Positions 1 through 5,004 of a DNA stretch of 5,004 nucleotides are shown piece after piece. The position numbers were made by a program, and so were the translations under genes. Position 1 is the first letter of the stretch. Every line of letters begins with the position of its first letter. The notes beneath the pieces were generated by a model. It saw only the letters and a program-made list of their open reading frames with translations, searched no databases and had not been told where the DNA came from. This DNA is from a virus (taxonomy: Duplodnaviria > Heunggongvirae > Uroviricota > Caudoviricetes): the IMG/VR virus record IMGVR_UViG_3300014523_000031. One strand, 5' to 3'.

Positions 1-77
1 ATATCTCCTTCGTTACCGATTAATTCTTTCATCTGACGAATGAATTCTTCGTCTGACCAGTTATCTGTAAAACTCAT
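1..77 (-). CDS. Hypothetical protein, N-terminal part only (MSFTDNWSDEEFIRQMKELIGNEGD...); continues past window start
   Basis: ATG at 77-75 on minus, open to position 1. Its start overlaps the stop of the upstream cIII-like ORF (ATGA, plus 74-77), suggesting translational coupling. Absent from the ORF track because it is truncated. Product not recognised. Confidence 0.45.
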   Translation of the reverse strand, partial: MSFTDNWSDEEFIRQMKELIGNEGD

Positions 78-244
78 GGACGGCCTTGTTGTTTCAAAAT
101 ATCCCAAAGCTTTTCGAGCAAACTTTTCATTCTTGGTTGTTTAAAGTCTGCTCCGGTTAAAATGTTTTTTCGTGAATGCTGTACCGATAAAATCGGGTTG
201 AAAGGGCGAACCGATGCCGCCCCTGCAATAGCGAACTGTTGCAT
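74..244 (-). CDS. cIII: CIII-like protein (lambda CIII family, FtsH inhibitor that stabilises CII), 56 aa
   Basis: Hand translation gives MQQFAIAGAASVRPFNPILSVQHSRKNILTGADFKQPRMKSLLEKLWDILKQQGRP. The N-terminus (MQ.FAIAG) and C-terminal SLLE...DIL.Q.G segment resemble lambda CIII as I recall it. AAGGAG Shine-Dalgarno 6 nt upstream of ATG 244. Reading frame stays open upstream into the N gap, so the true start is not certain. Below the ORF-track size cutoff. Confidence 0.6.
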   Translation of the reverse strand: MQQFAIAGAASVRPFNPILSVQHSRKNILTGADFKQPRMKSLLEKLWDILKQQGRP

Positions 245-298: not shown

Positions 299-414
299 NN
301 NNNNNNNNNNNNNNNNNNNNNNNNNNNNNNNNNNNNNNNNNNNNNNNNNNNNNNNNNNNNNNNNNNNNNNNNNNNNNNNNNNNNNNNNNNNNNNNNNNNN
401 NNNNNNNNNNNNNN
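299..414. other. Assembly gap (116 consecutive N)
   Basis: Direct observation of an N run; true length and content unknown. Confidence 0.99.
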
Positions 415-474: not shown

Positions 475-930
475 TTACTTAACCAATGATGCTGCATATT
501 CGATAAGGTAAAGCTTTGGGGCCAGCCAAATTTTTAACCAAGTCATATTGGTTACTACACCAATAATAAAAAATCCCCACAGAGTCAAAACTCCAACCAA
601 TGGCATGATAAGAAGATTAATATCACCTTTGCTATCCCAAACCATTGTCGGCCTGTATTTGGGATTTCCTTTCTCCCATGAATATCCTTCATCACCGATT
701 TTACCTGTCTCAACTCTTTGGCACTGCTTCTTCATAAACCAGAAAACCAGTGGGATTGTTAGAATGGCGATGGCCATTAATGTTTTAATCAGACTGTCAA
801 CCATATTCCATAGCAGCAACTGATGAACAACATCAGGAATCTGTGCCTGGCTAAATGAAACAGCCGCGTCTATTCCATTACTGGCTTTTTGCAGTAGTTC
901 TACGAGAATCTTGTTTGCTTGTTCTTCCAT
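475..930 (-). CDS. Hypothetical small membrane protein, 151 aa, two predicted transmembrane segments; function unknown
   Basis: ATG 930 with AAGGTGA Shine-Dalgarno (complement of plus 934-940). Hydrophobic stretches LMAIAILTIPLVFWFM and LLIMPLVGVLTLWGFFIIGVV flank a charged loop. Has its own downstream terminator. The antisense ORF 548-823 looks compositionally junk-like. Confidence 0.75.
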   Translation of the reverse strand: MEEQANKILVELLQKASNGIDAAVSFSQAQIPDVVHQLLLWNMVDSLIKTLMAIAILTIPLVFWFMKKQCQRVETGKIGDEGYSWEKGNPKYRPTMVWDSKGDINLLIMPLVGVLTLWGFFIIGVVTNMTWLKIWLAPKLYLIEYAASLVK

Positions 931-970: not shown

Positions 971-999
971 CAAAAATAAAGGCCACCATCAGGCAGCCT
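968..999 (-). terminator. Probable rho-independent terminator downstream of the 83-aa ORF
   Basis: Minus-strand hairpin AAGGCUGCC-UGAU-GGUGGCCUU (9-bp stem with two G-U pairs) followed by UAUUUUUGG. Contains copy 2 of the 16-bp repeat and overlaps the stop codon at 989-991. Confidence 0.45.
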
Positions 1000-1240
1000 T
1001 GTTGTAAATGTTGCAGGTATCAAGTAAGTAATTAGATGGAGCGCCATAAATTATGAATTCATCGTTTGTCGGGTCCATCTCCATCTCTTGGCCTATTGCC
1101 ATTCTTGCGTCAGTGTCATCAGAGGCGAAGCATAAAACAGCCCACGCACCCATTGTTTTAAAAAGAACTGCAATTGGCTGTGGTTTTACTGAATTTGCGT
1201 TAGCGCGAAAATCACAAATCGCACTTTCATGAAATTCCAT
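989..1240 (-). CDS. Hypothetical soluble protein, 83 aa; function unknown
   Basis: ATG 1240 with GAGGTGAG Shine-Dalgarno (complement of plus 1244-1251). No hydrophobic segments. Sits between the tL1-like terminator and the 151-aa membrane protein gene. Confidence 0.65.
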   Translation of the reverse strand: MEFHESAICDFRANANSVKPQPIAVLFKTMGAWAVLCFASDDTDARMAIGQEMEMDPTNDEFIIYGAPSNYLLDTCNIYNKAA

Positions 1241-1435: not shown

Positions 1436-1717
1436 TTACATCCTCATATTTTTCATCTTCAATTTTTCGACATTGCGAGGAAATGGTGTTGCTAATGCTT
1501 TGTCAACTTTGTCCATTGGTTCTTCATTAATCTTATATTCAGGACCGTCATCTATAGCATTAAATCCAGGTGTTACACCGTTTTTTAATGCATATGCTAT
1601 CCTTTTTTCCCATCTCGCTATTCTCCTCCTGTCTCGAGATGTAAGACCTCTATCAGATACTTTTCTGTTTTGTCCGCGGTCAGGATTAACATAAATAGTC
1701 TTTTTCACCATAAGCAT
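1436..1717 (-). CDS. Hypothetical basic protein, about 93 aa, immediately downstream of and coupled to N
   Basis: The ORF-track start at 1723 is a TTG codon. The first ATG (1717-1715) lies 2 nt after the N stop codon (1722-1720). Charged, arginine-rich composition (SRDRRRIARWEKR). Stop TAA 1436-1438. The antisense plus ORF 1407-1694 is low-complexity hydrophobic and rejected. Not recognised. Confidence 0.5.
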   Translation of the reverse strand: MLMVKKTIYVNPDRGQNRKVSDRGLTSRDRRRIARWEKRIAYALKNGVTPGFNAIDDGPEYKINEEPMDKVDKALATPFPRNVEKLKMKNMRM

Positions 1718-1719
1718 AC

Positions 1720-2025
1720 TCAATAAGCACCGTACGGTAGTTTACTGTACAATTTTATTTTTTGGACTGCATGTATTTTGTTTCCTAACGGGTTTGAATC
1801 TTTGTAATAAATACTTCTATTTTTTCGAACGACTTCTTCTTTCTTCTTGCAGCAAAGGCTTCCTAGTGATGCTGCTTTGTCTGCTCTGACGCAACCAGAG
1901 AGCTTTAGCGCAATTTTTCGCGCCAGTGCTTCATTACTGCGTCGATCGGCAATAAGTTCTGCTCTGCGAGCTTTGTAGCGGCTTTTTGCCGTACCTTTGG
2001 ATTCTTTCCAGACAATGGTTACCAT
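1720..2025 (-). CDS. N: Transcription antitermination protein N, phage-21-type arginine-rich motif
   Basis: Product MVTIVWKESKGTAKSRYKARRAELIADRR... carries the boxB-binding motif GTAKSRYKARRAELIA known from phage 21 N. AAGGAG Shine-Dalgarno 6 nt upstream of ATG 2025. The ORF-track start at 2055 adds 10 residues with no SD, so I place the start at 2025. Lies directly downstream of PL and nutL. Confidence 0.9.
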   Translation of the reverse strand: MVTIVWKESKGTAKSRYKARRAELIADRRSNEALARKIALKLSGCVRADKAASLGSLCCKKKEEVVRKNRSIYYKDSNPLGNKIHAVQKIKLYSKLPYGAY

Positions 2026-2135
2026 GATGGTCTCCTTTAAGTGGCTTTGGCGCATGACGCGTCGAGGTGCTTATCTTCTCGATCGCTGTCTTGCAGCTGC
2101 AATTCGCGCCATCCCCAAAACCACTCAAGTTCTGG

Positions 2136-2311: not shown

Positions 2312-2340
2312 CGGGAAATAAAAAAGGGGCGAAAGCCCCT
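2312..2340 (-). terminator. Rho-independent terminator ending the cI transcript
   Basis: Minus-strand hairpin AGGGGC-UUUC-GCCCCU (plus 2325-2340) followed by UUUUUAUUU (complement of plus 2312-2324). Begins at the cI stop codon. No rex-like genes lie between cI and PL. Confidence 0.7.
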
Positions 2341-2990
2341 TAAGGAAGGTTTGCTAGCTTGGCATCAACGACAACGCCAATGATTTTACAGTTCCCATTG
2401 ATTTCAATCATTGGGTATTGTGGATTGAGTGGTTTCAGGAATTTTCTACCGGCATCAATAACTAACTTTTTGAATGTCGCCTCGTTTTCTCCTTCAAGTT
2501 TGGCGACTACCAGCTTTCCATTACGTGGTTCGACTTCTGGGTCGACGAGAATAATCATCCCCTCAGGAATACTCAGTCCTGCCGGGGCAGTCATTGAATC
2601 GCCTTTAACGTCGAGCCAAAAAGAGTCTTCAGAACAATCTACCGTTGTGTCGTACCAGTTATCTATTGCACGCCTATGATATGGCTCTACAGCTTCCATC
2701 CAACATCCTGCGCTTACCCAACTAATTAGAGGATACGAACCTCTTGGATCATGCCTGCTGTGATAGGCAATGTTTGAAAGACTATCCTCTCCTTTCAACA
2801 GGTAATCAGGGGAGCACTGCAAAGCCTTGGCTAAGGCCAATAGGTTTTCGCCATTGGGCTCAGTTTCAGATCGCTCCCATTGGGAAATAGCAACATTAGA
2901 CACGCCAACCATCTTGCCAAGGGCAGCCTGCCTAATCTTGAGTTCTTTTCTGCGAGCGCGAATACGCTCACCCATCAGTTGTGTATTCAT
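2340..2990 (-). CDS. cI: Phage repressor CI (P22 C2-type): N-terminal HTH domain plus C-terminal S24/LexA-like autopeptidase domain
   Basis: 216 aa. HTH segment QAALGKMVGVSNVAISQWERS; Ala-Gly cleavage site in WVSAGCW; catalytic Ser in GDSM and Lys in VVAKL. Sequence matches my recollection of the P22 c2 repressor along its length. Transcribed divergently from cro across the operator region. Confidence 0.96.
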   Translation of the reverse strand: MNTQLMGERIRARRKELKIRQAALGKMVGVSNVAISQWERSETEPNGENLLALAKALQCSPDYLLKGEDSLSNIAYHSRHDPRGSYPLISWVSAGCWMEAVEPYHRRAIDNWYDTTVDCSEDSFWLDVKGDSMTAPAGLSIPEGMIILVDPEVEPRNGKLVVAKLEGENEATFKKLVIDAGRKFLKPLNPQYPMIEINGNCKIIGVVVDAKLANLP

Positions 2991-3070: not shown

Positions 3071-3256
3071 ATGTACAAAAAAGATGTTATTGACCACTTC
3101 GGAACCCAGCGTGCTGTTGCTAAAGCACTAGGCATTAGCGATGCAGCAGTCTCTCAGTGGAAAGAAGTTATCCCAGAGAAAGACGCCTATCGATTGGAAA
3201 TCGTTACAGCTGGCGCCCTGAAGTATCAAGAAAGTGCTTACCGCCAAGCGGCATAA
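3071..3256 (+). CDS. cro: Cro repressor (P22 Cro-type), 61 aa
   Basis: GGAG Shine-Dalgarno at 3060-3063, ATG 3071. HTH segment QRAVAKALGISDAAVSQW. Sequence matches my recollection of P22 Cro. First gene after PR. Confidence 0.95.
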   Translation: MYKKDVIDHFGTQRAVAKALGISDAAVSQWKEVIPEKDAYRLEIVTAGALKYQESAYRQAA

Positions 3257-3263
3257 GCAAATT

Positions 3264-3303
3264 GCTCTTTAACAGTTCTGGCCTTTCACCTCTAACCGGG
3301 TGA
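3264..3303 (+). promoter_or_regulatory. nutR: nutR: boxA plus phage-21-type boxB hairpin
   Basis: boxA GCTCTTTAACA at 3264-3274 (identical to the nutL boxA), then boxB UCACCU-CUAACC-GGGUGA at 3286-3303 (6-bp stem including one U-G pair, same loop as nutL). Confidence 0.85.
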
Positions 3304-3349
3304 GCAAACATCAGCGGCAAATCCATTGGGTGTGCCGCTATAACTCAAT

Positions 3350-3394
3350 ATCAATATAGGAAAATTAACAAATGGCACAAGCAAGCTACAGCAA
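3350..3394 (-). promoter_or_regulatory. Candidate PRE (establishment promoter) with a CII-binding direct repeat TTGC-N6-TTGC
   Basis: Minus strand reads TTGCTGTAGCTTGC (complement of plus 3381-3394), the canonical CII recognition geometry. It lies within the first codons of cII and points leftward toward cro and cI, as in lambda. The -10 element is not well defined. Confidence 0.55.
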
Positions 3395-3668
3395 GCCAAC
3401 ACAGCGAGAAATTGATCGCGCTGAAACTGATTTACTCATCAACCTGTCAACGCTTACCCAGCGCGGTCTGGCAAAGATGATTGGCTGTCATGAATCGAAG
3501 ATAAGCAGAACGGACTGGAGATTTATTGCTTCGGTCTTGTGTGCTTTCGGAATGGCATCAGACATCAGTCCGATTAGCAGGGCTTTTAAGTATGCGCTTG
3601 ATGAAATCACAAAGAAAAAATCCCCGGCCGCCACCGAGGATTTTAAGCAAATTGATATGCAATTCTGA
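3372..3668 (+). CDS. cII: CII-family transcriptional activator (lambda CII / P22 C1 analog), 98 aa
   Basis: C-terminal KKKSPAATEDFKQIDMQF parallels the lambda CII C-terminus (NKKRPAATERSEQIQMEF as I recall it). HTH-like segment TQRGLAKMIGCHESKISR. AGGA Shine-Dalgarno upstream of ATG 3372. Located after cro and nutR. Confidence 0.9.
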   Translation: MAQASYSKPTQREIDRAETDLLINLSTLTQRGLAKMIGCHESKISRTDWRFIASVLCAFGMASDISPISRAFKYALDEITKKKSPAATEDFKQIDMQF

Positions 3669-3700
3669 GGGAATTACTGGATCAATCCACAGGAGTAATT

Positions 3701-3862
3701 ATGACAAAACGTCGTAAGAAATACCAGGAAAAAGAAGAGATTCGACACCCTGATTCACCTGAGGGATTAGTGGTAGCCGCAGCAAATAACAGGGCGTTCG
3801 CAGAGCGCCTTGTTGGTGTTTACAGACTAGCCAAAGCAGGGGTGAAACATGGGCGTCGTTAA
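3701..3862 (+). CDS. Possible small ORF, 53 aa, basic N-terminus ([53 protein letters not shown])
   Basis: AGGAG Shine-Dalgarno at 3691-3695 with 5-nt spacing to ATG 3701. Stop TAA 3860-3862 overlaps the start of the O-like gene by 14 nt in another frame. Absent from the ORF track because of size. Not recognised. Confidence 0.4.
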   Translation: MTKRRKKYQEKEEIRHPDSPEGLVVAAANNRAFAERLVGVYRLAKAGVKHGRR

Positions 3863-4670
3863 GTTAGCTGATTACAGGCCTCAACTGGAGGTCGTGGAGC
3901 ATCGCGTGGCAGATACCGAAGATGGTTTCATGCGCGTTGCTAACGAGATTATCGACAGTCTGCTGATGGCTGATTTAACCGTCCGGCAGTTGAAGGTGAT
4001 GCTCGCTATCATGCGCAAGACATACGGATTCAATAAGCCGATGGATCGACTCACAAACACGCAGATAGCAGCCATGACAGGTATTCATCACACTCATGTT
4101 TGCGCTGCCAAGCGCCAGCTTATCGAGCGTAAATTCCTCATTGCTGATGGCGTGAAAATCGGAGTGAACAAGGTGGTTTCTCAGTGGATTAGCCAGGACA
4201 GCTTAACATTAGCTAAAACAGCTAATAAAACATTAGCCAAGTCGGCTAATGGGTATAAGCCAAGTCAGCTAAACACAAAAGACAATATACAAAAGACAAT
4301 AAATACAAATACCCCCTTACCCCCTAACGGGGGCGGCGATGGGCAGGTTAAACCTGAACGTCGCAAGGCAGAACGAATCGACTACGAATCCTTCCTGAGC
4401 GCCTACAACGCCGAAGTCGGTGACAGACTTCCACACGCTGTTGCGGTCAACGAGAAACGCAAACGCCGCCTGAAGAAAATCATCCCGCAACTGAAAACGC
4501 CAAACGTGGACGGTTTCAGAGCGTATGTCAGGGCGTTTGTACATCAGGCCAAGCCGTTTTACTTCGGAGACAACGACACTGGCTGGACGGCAGATTTTGA
4601 TTACCTGCTGAGGGAAGATTCGTTAACGGGAGTACGGGAAGGGAAGTTTGCAGACAGGGGGATTGCATGA
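3849..4670 (+). CDS. Replication initiation protein, lambda O / P22 gp18 type
   Basis: 273 aa. N-terminal region ([56 protein letters not shown]...) has the hallmarks of the phage O N-terminal DNA-binding domain. Low-complexity linker ([13 protein letters not shown]) coincides with ori-like iterons in the DNA. Stop TGA overlaps the ATG of the downstream helicase (ATGA at 4667-4670). Confidence 0.9.
4187..4273. repeat. ori-like iterons: four copies of an approximately 20-bp repeat with internal dyad symmetry, inside the O-like gene
   Basis: Copies start at about 4187, 4207, 4231 and 4254, with a core near ATTAGCCAAGTCGGCTAA. The best copy is TTAGCC-AAGTC-GGCTAA at 4233-4249, whose two arms are reverse complements. 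Copies 3 and 4 share 16 of 20 positions by hand alignment. Confidence 0.7.
4274..4333. promoter_or_regulatory. A-rich tract and GC palindrome following the iterons (putative origin unwinding region)
   Basis: 4274-4312 is strongly A-rich on the plus strand and contains a 12-bp direct repeat caaaagacaata (4276-4287 and 4290-4301). It is followed by the palindrome CCCCC-TAAC-GGGGG at 4320-4333. This mirrors the iteron / AT-rich / palindrome layout of lambda ori. Confidence 0.6.
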
Positions 4671-5004
4671 GACAGGATATCGAAGCGAGCGTTATCGGTG
4701 GCCTGCTGATTGGTGGATTAACACCAACCGCCAGCGACGTTCTGGCAACGCTAGAGCCGGAAGCGTTTTCAATTCCGCTCTACCGGAAAGCCTTCGAGGC
4801 TATCCGCAAGCAGGCGAGAAACAGAAACCTAATCGACGCGCTGATGGTTGCCGAGGCGTGCGGAGAGGAGCATTTCACGTCAATCCTGATGACCAGCAAG
4901 AACTGCCCGAGTGCCGCAAACCTGAAGGGATATGCCGGAATGGTCGCGGATAACTATCACCGCCGTCTGGTGCTGGAAATCATGGATGAAATGCGTGAAC
5001 CAAT
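4667..5004 (+). CDS. Replicative DNA helicase, DnaB family (P22 gp12-like), N-terminal part; continues past window end
   Basis: Hand translation from ATG 4667 gives [18 protein letters not shown]...[20 protein letters not shown]...[30 protein letters not shown], which matches the DnaB N-terminal domain pattern (compare E. coli DnaB ...SVLGGLML...NTPSAANISAYADIV...). The track ORF 4648-4953 is in a different frame, Arg/Trp-rich, and rejected. Confidence 0.88.

What the first reader, a model, noticed from the sequence alone, without database searches (positions are those of the whole stretch)
3691..3862. Possible 53-aa ORF between cII and the O-like gene
There is a near-consensus AGGAG Shine-Dalgarno with ideal spacing and an ATG at 3701. 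The product has a highly basic N-terminus (MTKRRKKYQEKEE) and its stop overlaps the O-like start by 14 nt. In lambda this interval holds the oop/Po region rather than a protein gene. A small basic protein here could be a regulator, or the ORF could be spurious and the region could encode an antisense RNA element.
Basis: seen in the sequence. Interest (0 to 1): 0.5.

Follow-up and report, generated by a model that had tools for sequence, protein, structure and literature searches.

The report
Known small gene before replication gene O
The 53-codon reading frame is a real, conserved gene, identical to gene 53 of phage HK97 and already annotated in about a hundred phages, though nobody knows what its protein does; it sits next to a lambda-like antisense RNA rather than replacing it.

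Summary
In detail: AGGAG at 3691-3695, ATG at 3701, a 53-aa basic product, and a 14-nt overlap with the O-like gene at 3849.

The ORF is a genuine gene. It is 100% identical in protein to HK97 gp53 (Sf6 gene 42, ES18 gp58; PHROG 1331, function unknown). Across 19 distinct alleles from about 10 enterobacterial genera, pN/pS is 0.19-0.23 in this frame. Four of the other five frames give 1.4-5; the exception is the antisense frame that shares its wobble positions (0.26-0.30) and holds no ORF. All indels are in frame, and the SD and ATG are always kept.

An oop-like antisense RNA lies at 3690->3614, and its promoter's extended -10 overlaps the ORF's start codon. This "cII-oop-orf-O-P" layout is already published (Hayes 2012).

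Function is unknown. The protein has a disordered Lys/Arg-rich N-terminus and one conserved helix. New clue: in lambdoid loci sharing the conserved junction sequence, gp53 or the unrelated P22 orf48 (DUF2740) occurs only where O is followed by a phage-encoded helicase. It never occurs with lambda P or a DnaC-like loader. I infer a replication-accessory protein made together with O. The ORF itself is ordinary and already known.

The parts
3372..3668 (+). cII-type transcriptional activator gene (98 aa), upstream neighbour
   Evidence: Pfam Phage_CII E=2.7e-33; 97.6% nt identity to HK97 cII-gp53-O
3614..3690 (-). oop-like antisense RNA (about 77 nt), placed by homology to lambda oop; overlaps the last 55 nt of cII and ends 1 nt before the ORF53 SD
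   Evidence: Alignment to the lambda/P22/HK97 oop regions. Folds into two hairpins, dG -30.4 kcal/mol, z=-4.1. HK629 and P22 records annotate oop at the same place. Coordinates relative to the ATG follow PMC3349717. Expression not shown.
3617..3644 (-). intrinsic terminator hairpin of the oop-like RNA (t_oop equivalent), followed by a T-run
   Evidence: Terminator scan: 12-bp stem, 5 G-C pairs, loop of 4, then TTCTTTGTGA
3678..3703 (.). conserved lambdoid junction sequence TGGATCAATCCACAGGAGTAATTATG ('sequence 5' / Sf6 bsq5); carries the oop 5' end, the pO -10, the SD and the ATG
   Evidence: Exact degenerate pattern found in at least 120 viral contigs, followed there by different genes. Sf6 record annotates bsq5 at this position. 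PMC3349717 describes a 33-bp conserved region.
3691..3695 (+). Shine-Dalgarno AGGAG of ORF53 (the same element serves gene O in lambda)
   Evidence: Sequence; alignment with lambda; an SD-like motif is kept in 12 divergent loci
3698..3706 (-). pO promoter extended -10 (TGTCATAAT on the minus strand), overlapping the ATG and codon 2 of ORF53; the -35 equivalent (about 3721-3726, TGGTAT) is weak
   Evidence: CATAAT is invariant in lambda/P22/HK97/window. P22 record annotates the oop promoter at the orf48 start. The consensus scan did not call it because of the weak -35. Assignment is by homology, not by experiment.
3701..3862 (+). ORF53 = HK97 gp53-family gene (53 aa): disordered basic N-terminus (residues 1-20) plus a conserved helix (21-46)
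   Evidence: PHROG 1331 E=1.4e-37. 100% protein identity to HK97 gp53, Sf6 gene 42 and others. pN/pS 0.19-0.23. AF2 model pLDDT 68.
3838..3842 (+). SD (AGGGG) of the O-like gene, embedded in codons 46-48 (A-G-V) of ORF53
   Evidence: GGAG/GGGG/GGAGG is kept 6-7 nt before the O ATG in all 13 divergent loci
3849..4670 (+). O-like replication initiator (273 aa); its start overlaps the ORF53 stop by 14 nt
   Evidence: Pfam Phage_rep_O; TIGR01610; 98.5% identity to HK97 gp54; 51% to P22 gp18. The overlap is 14 nt at every one of the 92 loci where the downstream O start could be read.
4667..5004 (+). 5' part of the DnaB-like replicative helicase gene (runs off the window)
   Evidence: 98% identity to HK97 gp55, which has the Pfam domains DnaB + DnaB_C; PHROG 19

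Best explanation
Window 3701-3862 is a genuine protein-coding gene of the HK97 gp53 family.

Shown:
- It is the cistron between cII and the O-like initiator on the rightward early transcript.
- It uses the very SD and ATG that serve gene O in lambda.
- Its last 14 nt overlap the O start, and its codons 46-48 carry the SD of O.
- On the other strand its first ~30 nt hold the pO promoter region. The oop-like antisense RNA made from there (3690->3614) covers the cII 3' end.
- The product is a 6-kDa, pI 10.7 protein. It has a disordered Lys/Arg-rich N-terminus and one conserved helix (HPDSPEGLVVAA..N.AFAERL.GV.RLA).

Inferred:
- Ribosomes that finish gp53 re-initiate on O, so the two proteins are made together.
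- The protein is an accessory factor of O-dependent replication initiation in modules that bring their own replicative helicase.
- It acts on something common to those modules (O itself or its turnover, or the host DnaB/DnaC machinery) rather than on one particular helicase. The reason is that the identical gp53 is paired with three unrelated helicase types and four O types.

Confidence by layer:
- Real gene with this operon and overlap architecture: about 0.9.
- Replication-accessory role: about 0.4.
- Any specific molecular target: below 0.2.
For: Coding status:
- pN/pS is 0.23 over the whole ORF and 0.19 in the core, which excludes the pO and O overlaps.
- Four of the other five frames give 1.4-5.2. 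The fifth, the wobble-sharing antisense frame, gives 0.26-0.30 and holds no ORF.
- Third codon positions vary at 50 of 56 codons.
- All 7 nucleotide differences among 8 alleles encoding the identical protein are third-position changes.
- Homologues are 51-55 aa and differ only by in-frame indels.
- The ATG and SD are kept in 12 species of about 10 genera.

Family and spread:
- PHROG 1331, E=1.4e-37.
- Present in 97 phage records, including HK97, Sf6, ES18, epsilon34 and Stx phages.
- Present in about 561 of 5426 complete E. coli genomes, called 'hypothetical protein' by PGAP.

Architecture:
- The 14-nt overlap with an O gene starting [10 protein letters not shown] is seen at all 92 loci where the O start could be read.
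- 114 of 116 contigs holding that O start have an intact gp53 ORF immediately upstream.
- The oop/pO homology is shown.

Association with helicase type:
- Among loci sharing the junction sequence, 141 loci with gp53 or DUF2740 have O followed by a DnaB-like helicase (two clades only 31% identical) or a Toprim-DnaB_C primase-helicase.
- 35 loci without a small ORF have lambda P or an IstB/DnaC-like loader.
- No locus is discordant.
- 11 of 12 divergent genome loci also have a DnaB-like helicase after O.
- L124 has gp53, an O with a lambda-type N-domain (92% identical) but a non-lambda C-domain, and a primase-helicase.
Against: - No experiment on expression or function was found.
- There is no match in Pfam, NCBIfam, PADLOC or PDB.
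- Only 26 clusters turned up among 1.84 billion representatives, all of them small proteins apart from two spurious repeat hits.
- The structure model is of modest confidence and is a single helix, so it is uninformative.
- No mRNA structure sequesters the O start (z=+0.3 and +0.9), and O has its own SD. Coupling is therefore plausible but not required.
- The helicase association weakens in a broader random sample of O-like genes. The cluster-level Fisher p is 1e-4 to 2e-2 depending on the clustering threshold. A few loader-type modules have possible small ORFs, and two distant helicase-type modules have none.
- The sequences are phylogenetically non-independent.
- A ClpX-zinc-finger small protein in the same slot occurs with a DnaB-like helicase in L358 but with an IstB/DnaC-like loader in L385.
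- Two null alleles exist, so the gene is not indispensable for prophage persistence.
Confidence: 0.85

Rival explanations
1. gp53 is a moron-type accessory gene unrelated to replication, for example an anti-defence, host-takeover or lysis-lysogeny modulator. On this view it merely occupies a recombination-prone, well-expressed slot just after the conserved junction sequence. Its link to helicase-type modules would then be historical linkage.
For: - The slot accepts unrelated cargo: gp53, DUF2740 (P22 orf48), a 214-aa T5orf172/MUG113 protein, a ClpX zinc-finger protein and several orphan small ORFs.
- Mosaic breakpoints fall at both ends of the ORF.
- The family is narrow and fast-evolving in its N-terminus.
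- Null alleles occur.
Against: - The 14-nt overlap with O is invariant, and the O SD lies inside the ORF.
- There is no discordance with helicase/loader type among 176 junction-sharing loci, despite shuffling of O N-domains.
- No PADLOC hit.
- A cIII homologue is already present in the window (74-244), so a CIII-like role is not vacant.
Confidence: 0.3
2. The ORF is translated, but only the act of translation matters. It would be a leader cistron that delivers ribosomes to O and/or keeps the O start away from the oop:cII duplex, and the peptide itself would have no function.
For: - The overlap geometry is invariant.
- Non-homologous small ORFs of similar length occupy the same place upstream of related O genes.
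- Lambda manages without one.
Against: - The amino-acid sequence is under purifying selection in the core, away from the overlapping signals (pN/pS 0.19).
- 14 residues are invariant across 27 sequences, mostly on the predicted helix.
- O has its own conserved SD, and no occluding mRNA structure was found.
Confidence: 0.1
3. The ORF is spurious and the region is non-coding. It would serve only as the promoter and flank of the oop-like antisense RNA, or as a spacer.
For: - pO overlaps the first ~30 nt.
- Chance ORFs of this size are common in the window.
- Two of 116 relatives have disrupted frames.
Against: - Substitutions are frame-specific and third-position, indels are in frame only, and the start and SD are conserved.
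- The oop RNA itself lies outside the ORF at 3614-3690.
- About 130 nt of the ORF have no role in pO.
Confidence: 0.02

Closest known systems
HK97 gp53 family (Sf6 gene 42, ES18 gp58, epsilon34 gp49, g341c gp44; PHROG 1331, 'unknown function')
   Same: The protein is 100% identical. Position (cII - gp53 - O), length and the 14-nt overlap with O are the same. The region is 97.6% identical in nucleotide sequence to HK97.
   Different: Nothing of substance. Only the neighbouring immunity region differs: it is P22 c2/cro-type here, as in HK629.
P22 orf48 / Pfam DUF2740 (PF10872)
   Same: It occupies the same slot after the same junction sequence. It has a similar size (48 aa), a stop that overlaps the O-like gene (8 nt), the same kinds of downstream helicase modules, and pO overlapping its start.
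   Different: There is no detectable homology (hhalign probability 0.1%). It has a Pfam family whereas gp53 has none. RefSeq and PHROG 1913 label it 'tail protein', which its location makes implausible.
Lambda oop RNA / pO promoter / cII-O junction
   Same: Shared features are the 32-nt cII-to-ATG spacer, the SD and ATG, the -10 CATAAT with upstream TG, and a 77-nt two-hairpin antisense RNA with an intrinsic terminator inside the cII 3' end.
   Different: In lambda the ATG opens gene O directly. Here it opens ORF53, and O follows 148 nt later. The pO -35 region is not conserved (TGGTAT versus TTGAGT). Expression of the RNA in this phage is not shown. Rfam has no family that matched.
Staphylococcus phage 77 ORF104 (52 aa), which binds the host helicase loader DnaI while the phage supplies its own replication factor. 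This is from my own knowledge (Liu 2004; Hood & Berger 2016) and was not retrieved here.
   Same: It is a very small phage protein encoded in the replication operon of a phage that carries its own helicase-related function. This is an analogy for how gp53 might work.
   Different: There is no sequence relationship, the host clade is different, and no evidence exists that gp53 binds DnaB or DnaC. It is purely a lead.
Stand-alone ClpX zinc-finger proteins in the same slot (L358, L385)
   Same: A 64-aa protein sits between a cII-like gene and a Phage_rep_O gene and overlaps the O start by about 17 nt.
   Different: It has a clear Pfam domain (PF06689, E=1.3e-14) that gp53 lacks. It is rare (one 90% cluster). 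It occurs with either a helicase or a DnaC-like loader.

Membership tests
HK97 gp53 family (PHROG 1331) | Full-length sequence match to the family profile | tested here: met
   phrog_1331 E=1.4e-37, residues 1-53 against profile positions 1-53 of 53; 100% identity to HK97 gp53 by tblastn
HK97 gp53 family (PHROG 1331) | Small size (51-55 aa) with the conserved core HPDSP[ED]GLV..A..N..FAER..G and a C-terminal GRR | tested here: met
   Alignment A2: 14 invariant columns, all present in the window protein
HK97 gp53 family (PHROG 1331) | Located directly upstream of an O-like initiator gene, with its stop overlapping the O start by 14 nt | tested here: met
   Window 3849-3862. The same overlap is seen at all 92 related loci where the O start could be read.
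HK97 gp53 family (PHROG 1331) | The protein is expressed | not testable with these tools
   No expression data were found in the literature searches. Purifying selection is indirect evidence only.
P22 orf48 / Pfam DUF2740 | Match to PF10872 | tested here: not met
   No Pfam hit for ORF53 even at E<=1, whereas P22 orf48 hits PF10872 at 2e-28. hhalign of A2 against orf48 gives probability 0.1%.
P22 orf48 / Pfam DUF2740 | Slot between the cII-like and O-like genes, overlapping the O start | tested here: met
   Same slot and same junction sequence. This is positional analogy only.
Lambda-type oop antisense RNA with pO | Short leftward transcript region antisense to the cII 3' end, homologous to lambda oop | tested here: met
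   Alignment A3; overlaps cII by 55 nt, as stated for lambda in PMC3349717
Lambda-type oop antisense RNA with pO | Intrinsic terminator and two-hairpin fold | tested here: met
   Terminator scan hit 3644->3617; MFE -30.4 kcal/mol, z=-4.1, same architecture as lambda oop
Lambda-type oop antisense RNA with pO | Promoter pO with a -10 CATAAT | tested here: inconclusive
   The -10 plus upstream TG is conserved, but the -35 is poor and the consensus scan reported no promoter
Lambda-type oop antisense RNA with pO | The RNA is actually made and down-regulates cII | not testable with these tools
   Needs Northern blotting or 5'-RACE
Translationally coupled overlapping gene pair | Stop of the upstream gene overlaps the start of the downstream gene; the downstream SD lies inside the upstream ORF | tested here: met
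   ATGGGCGTCGTTAA overlap; AGGGG at 3838-3842; both conserved in 13 divergent loci
Translationally coupled overlapping gene pair | The downstream start is occluded by mRNA structure unless the upstream gene is translated | tested here: not met
   Folds of 3800-3885 and 3815-3870 are no more stable than shuffles (z=+0.31, +0.91)
Translationally coupled overlapping gene pair | O synthesis depends on gp53 translation | not testable with these tools
   Needs reporter fusions with and without a premature stop
Anti-phage defence proteins (PADLOC) | Match to any PADLOC model | tested here: not met
   0 families at E<=1

The most novel reading that the evidence does not exclude
The cII-O slot of lambdoid phages holds a class of tiny, non-homologous proteins (gp53, DUF2740 and others) that are made together with the initiator O. 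These proteins are specifically needed by, or advantageous to, replication modules that bring their own replicative helicase instead of hijacking host DnaB through lambda P or a DnaC-like loader.

Two possible modes of action:
- They could neutralise the host DnaB-DnaC machinery.
- They could control O turnover by ClpXP. The occasional presence of a free ClpX zinc-finger domain in the same slot hints at this.

That would make them an unrecognised third component of the P22/HK97-type replication initiation system.
Probability: 0.25. Interest if true: 0.6.

Novelty: already known. Interest (0 to 1): 0.22.

Why it matters
As a finding it mainly confirms existing annotation. The ORF is HK97 gene 53, carried by about 10% of complete E. 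coli genomes and by many Salmonella, Shigella and Stx phages, and the cII-oop-orf-O-P layout is already in the literature.

Its residual value is that a widespread gene at the head of a textbook replication operon still has no known function. The co-occurrence pattern found here offers a concrete, cheap experimental handle: small-ORF families are present only with phage-encoded helicases among junction-sharing lambdoids. If confirmed, this would add a component to the P22/HK97-type initiation pathway. It might also reveal a new way for phages to interfere with host helicase loading or with ClpXP.

Tried and rejected
- Rfam over the whole window gave only a chance sR44 hit (E=0.37) and no oop family.
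- The consensus promoter scan found nothing at 3300-4100 because the pO -35 is weak.
- Pfam, NCBIfam, PADLOC and PDB-sequence searches of ORF53 all came back empty.
- The profile search of 1.84 billion representatives found only small enterobacterial family members, plus two spurious repeat-protein hits (TPR-like P0080 and Ig-like P0081). No larger protein contains the domain.
- The AF2 model is a single helix at pLDDT 68. I did not run fold searches, because a lone helix of modest confidence gives meaningless matches.
- hhalign of the family against P22 orf48, lambda P and the 43-aa basic ORF of L318 showed no significant similarity.
- I looked for an mRNA hairpin that would enforce coupling and found none.
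- I considered a programmed frameshift fusing gp53 to O (O is in the +1 frame). No slippery motif is evident, and O has its own conserved SD and ATG, so I did not pursue it.
- I considered a CIII-like protease-inhibitor role. A cIII homologue is already present at 74-244 and there is no similarity, so this remains only a remote possibility.
- Literature searches for gp53, orf48 and DUF2740 function returned no functional study.
- My first fetch of the P22 record took the wrong region.
- The first version of the context script mis-called the gene after O by picking an alternative-frame TTG ORF. It also flagged 49-aa 'MRLM...' ORFs that are out-of-frame artefacts across the cII 3' end. Both errors were corrected.

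Full report
**What the window is**

The window is the immunity/replication region of a lambdoid prophage. Its genes, in order:
- a cIII homologue at 74-244 (-);
- a Nun-like ORF at 1436-1723 (-) and an N-like ORF at 1720-2055 (-);
- a P22 c2-type repressor at 2340-2990 (-) and a P22-type cro at 3071-3256 (+);
- a lambda-type cII at 3372-3668;
- the ORF in question at 3701-3862;
- an O-like initiator at 3849-4670;
- the start of a DnaB-like helicase at 4667.

The stretch 3342-4000 is 97.6% identical to HK97 cII-gp53-O.

**Check of the observation**

- AGGAG lies at 3691-3695, five bases before the ATG at 3701.
- The product is 53 aa and begins MTKRRKKYQEKEE.
- The stop overlaps the O-like ATG (3849) by 14 nt.

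A 53-codon ORF alone means little, because the window has 50 ORFs of 30 aa or more. The case therefore rests on comparison with other sequences.

**Is it a gene?**

Yes. The evidence is as follows.
- The protein matches PHROG 1331 end to end (E=1.4e-37).
- It is 100% identical to HK97 gp53, Sf6 gene 42 and many others. In all, 97 phage records hold it.
- It is found in about 561 of 5426 complete E. coli genomes, where PGAP calls it a hypothetical protein.
- 68 protein clusters were recovered from Escherichia, Salmonella, Cronobacter, Enterobacter, Citrobacter, Lelliottia and others.
- Twelve further species from the genome collection carry it.
- Lengths are 51-55 aa and differ only by in-frame indels.
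- Every divergent locus keeps an ATG preceded by an SD.
- On 19 distinct alleles, pN/pS is 0.23. It is 0.19 in the core, after removing the first 10 and last 5 codons that overlap other signals.
- Four of the other five frames give 1.4-5.2. The exception is the antisense frame that shares wobble positions (0.26-0.30), and no ORF exists there.
- 50 of 56 third positions vary.
- All seven differences among eight alleles encoding the identical protein are third-position changes.
- Of 116 viral contigs carrying the downstream O start, 114 have an intact ORF. One has a 1-nt deletion in an A5 run and one has a GGA->TGA nonsense codon.

**The antisense element**

Lambda's cII stop to O ATG spacer is 32 nt. 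The window's cII stop to ORF53 ATG spacer is also 32 nt, and the sequence through ATGAC is shared. ORF53 therefore begins exactly where lambda O begins.

The minus strand from 3690 to about 3614 aligns with lambda oop. It has an intrinsic terminator at 3644->3617. It folds into the same two hairpins (dG -30.4 kcal/mol, z=-4.1). It overlaps the last 55 nt of cII, as described for lambda in PMC3349717.

The pO -10 (CATAAT, with TG upstream) is the reverse complement of 3698-3706. It thus overlaps the ATG and codon 2 of ORF53. The -35 is not conserved, and the consensus scan did not call a promoter.

The P22 record annotates the oop terminator and promoter in the same relation to its orf48, and HK629 annotates oop likewise. 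Rfam has no matching family.

Hayes et al. [quoted passage not shown] They note that lambda lacks the orf. They name P22 orf48 and HK97 gp53 homologues as its occupants, and they describe the 33-bp conserved sequence spanning the oop 5' end and pO. The finding is therefore already known as an annotated gene of unknown function.

**Anatomy of the protein**

The protein is 6.1 kDa with pI 10.7 and a net charge of about +8. AlphaFold2 with the family alignment gives a disordered N-terminus (residues 1-20) and a helix at 21-46 with a kink at N30 (mean pLDDT 68).

The invariant residues (Q9, E12, P20, G22, L23, V24, A27, F33, A34, R36, G39, A44, R52, R53) lie mostly on that helix. The C-terminal AGVKHGRR is doubly constrained, because it encodes the SD (AGGGG, 3838-3842) and the first four codons of O.

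No Pfam, NCBIfam, PADLOC or PDB relative exists. A profile search of 1.84 billion representatives found only 26 clusters. All but two spurious repeat-protein hits are small proteins.

**Context and mosaicism**

In the 95 loci analysed, the upstream gene varies (lambda-type cII, P22 c1-type, others). The downstream gene is an O-like gene beginning [10 protein letters not shown] with a 14-nt overlap at all 92 loci where its start could be read.

P22 has, in the same slot, an unrelated 48-aa orf48. This belongs to Pfam DUF2740 (E=2e-28), shows no similarity to gp53 by hhalign (probability 0.1%), and overlaps gene 18 by 8 nt. The window's O is 51% identical to P22 gp18 from residue 10 onward. The small ORF plus the first ~10 O codons therefore behave as an exchangeable cassette.

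**A functional clue: the downstream partner**

I took all loci that contain the conserved junction sequence TGGATCWATCMACAGGAGTMATTATG (plus earlier loci). I classified what follows the ATG and what follows O, and confirmed the classes by Pfam.

| Slot content | Downstream of O | Loci |
|---|---|---|
| gp53 or DUF2740 | DnaB-like helicase (two clades, 31% identical) or 626-aa Toprim+DnaB_C primase-helicase | 141 |
| No small ORF (O starts at the junction ATG) | lambda P (33) or IstB/DnaC-like loader (2) | 35 |
| Discordant combinations | - | 0 |

Further points:
- L124 is telling. It has gp53, an O whose N-domain is 92% identical to lambda O but whose C-domain is non-lambda, and the primase-helicase.
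- Eleven of the twelve divergent genome loci also have a DnaB-like helicase after O.
- The identical gp53 is found with three helicase types and four O types. This argues against a specific fit to one helicase. It favours a target common to these modules or belonging to the host.

**Limits of that clue**

A random sample of O-like genes, taken by the motif RKTYG[FWY]NK, shows the pattern is a tendency rather than a rule outside the junction-sharing lambdoids.
- Other helicase-type modules carry other orphan small ORFs in the slot (L318, L312, L346, L328). L358 carries a stand-alone ClpX zinc finger (PF06689, E=1.3e-14).
- At least one distant helicase-type module (L350) has no small ORF. A few loader-type modules have possible small ORFs.
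- After clustering, Fisher p values are 1e-4 (95% clusters), 1e-3 (90%) and 2e-2 (80%). The sequences are not independent.
- The ClpX-zinc-finger protein occurs with a DnaB-like helicase in L358 but with an IstB/DnaC-like loader in L385, each time overlapping O. That ties this slot family to O rather than to the helicase.
- From my own knowledge, lambda O is a ClpXP substrate recognised through that very domain. The MGVVKL N-terminus of HK97-type O fits the ClpX N-motif-1 pattern. Both points are leads, not results.

**Coupling**

The overlap and the embedded SD allow termination-reinitiation. However, no mRNA structure hides the O start (z=+0.3 and +0.9). O can probably also initiate independently.

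**Verdict**

What it most likely is: the first cistron of the replication segment of the pR operon. It encodes a small basic helical protein made together with O, and pO/oop lies on the opposite strand at its 5' end.

My best functional inference, at about 0.4, is an accessory factor of O-dependent initiation in own-helicase modules. The main rival, at about 0.3, is an unrelated accessory gene sitting in a permissive slot.

The finding itself is already known and ordinary. The helicase-type association is the only part that may be new, and it needs a phylogeny-aware census and a deletion experiment.

Noticed in passing
window 299-414: A run of 116 N (masked or unsequenced stretch) lies between the cIII-like gene and the next leftward ORF. 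Two listed ORFs (239-472, 265-489) are artefacts that run through it.
   Followed up: no
window 1436-1723 (-) and 1720-2055 (-): An N-like antiterminator (PHROG 271, E=2e-31) is immediately followed by a Nun-like ORF (PHROG 5632, E=5e-49). The Nun-like ORF matches only profile positions 1-88 of 112, so it may be C-terminally truncated. Having both N-like and Nun-like genes side by side is unusual relative to HK022, where (from my own knowledge) nun replaces N.
   Followed up: no
window 475-930 (-) and 989-1240 (-): Two leftward genes of unknown function (PHROG 3054, 151 aa, hydrophobic; PHROG 2471, 83 aa) lie between cIII and the N region. Each is followed by a hairpin-plus-T-run-like sequence that I read by eye from the sequence (around 455-470 and 970-990).
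   Followed up: no
window 3526-3717 (+): A 63-aa TTG ORF lies out of frame across the cII 3' end and the ORF53 start. The same alternative-frame ORF ('MRLM...') recurs in lambda-type loci and is an artefact of the conserved oop region, not a gene.
   Followed up: yes
L242, L268, L281 (slot after the junction ATG): In three viral contigs the cII-O slot holds a 214-aa T5orf172/MUG113 (GIY-YIG-related) protein instead of a small ORF, followed by an O-like gene. The slot evidently accepts foreign cargo.
   Followed up: partly
L358 (64-aa ORF ending 154 nt before the O motif); L385 3501-3695: A stand-alone ClpX C4 zinc-finger protein (PF06689, E=1.3e-14) is encoded immediately upstream of and overlapping a Phage_rep_O gene. 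It occurs once with a DnaB-like helicase and once with an IstB/DnaC-like loader. It is rare, with only one 90% cluster in 5.8 billion proteins. It may compete with ClpX for the O protein.
   Followed up: partly
L124, L110, L169, L271: These loci have a chimeric O protein. It starts [10 protein letters not shown], has a lambda-type iteron-binding N-domain (92% identical to lambda O) and a non-lambda C-domain. It is preceded by gp53 and followed by a 626-aa Toprim+DnaB_C primase-helicase.
   Followed up: partly
L266 (968-aa protein after O): The primase-helicase is 968 aa instead of 626 aa. It has a ~340-aa insertion right after the Walker A GVNGHGK that starts with Cys and ends ...HNT. It looks like an intein in the P-loop (judged by eye only). 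In L254 a 164-aa HNH-like ORF sits between O and the helicase position.
   Followed up: no
L098 2850-2996 (P22 orf48): RefSeq calls P22 orf48 a 'tail protein', and PHROG 1913 inherits the category 'tail'. Its position between c1 and gene 18 in the early-right replication operon makes that label very likely an annotation error.
   Followed up: partly
L139 and L204: These are the only two disrupted gp53 alleles among 116 contigs. One is a 1-nt deletion in the A5 run at codons 10-12, and one is a Gly22 GGA->TGA change. O remains intact in both. They could be sequencing errors or show that the gene is dispensable in a prophage.
   Followed up: yes
13 divergent gp53 loci, start-codon region: As read by eye from the output, the minus strand opposite the gp53 start carries a -10-like hexamer in 12 of the 13 loci (CATAAT, TATAAT, TAGAAT or TAAAAT); L010 (CATTAT) is doubtful. 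This holds even where the upstream gene is not lambda-type cII. It suggests that a leftward promoter at this spot is conserved beyond the lambda-like oop sequence.
   Followed up: no
L036: Here gp53 and an HK97-type O truncated at 265 aa are followed by a 192-aa non-helicase protein instead of the DnaB-like gene. This is probably a deleted or rearranged prophage.
   Followed up: no
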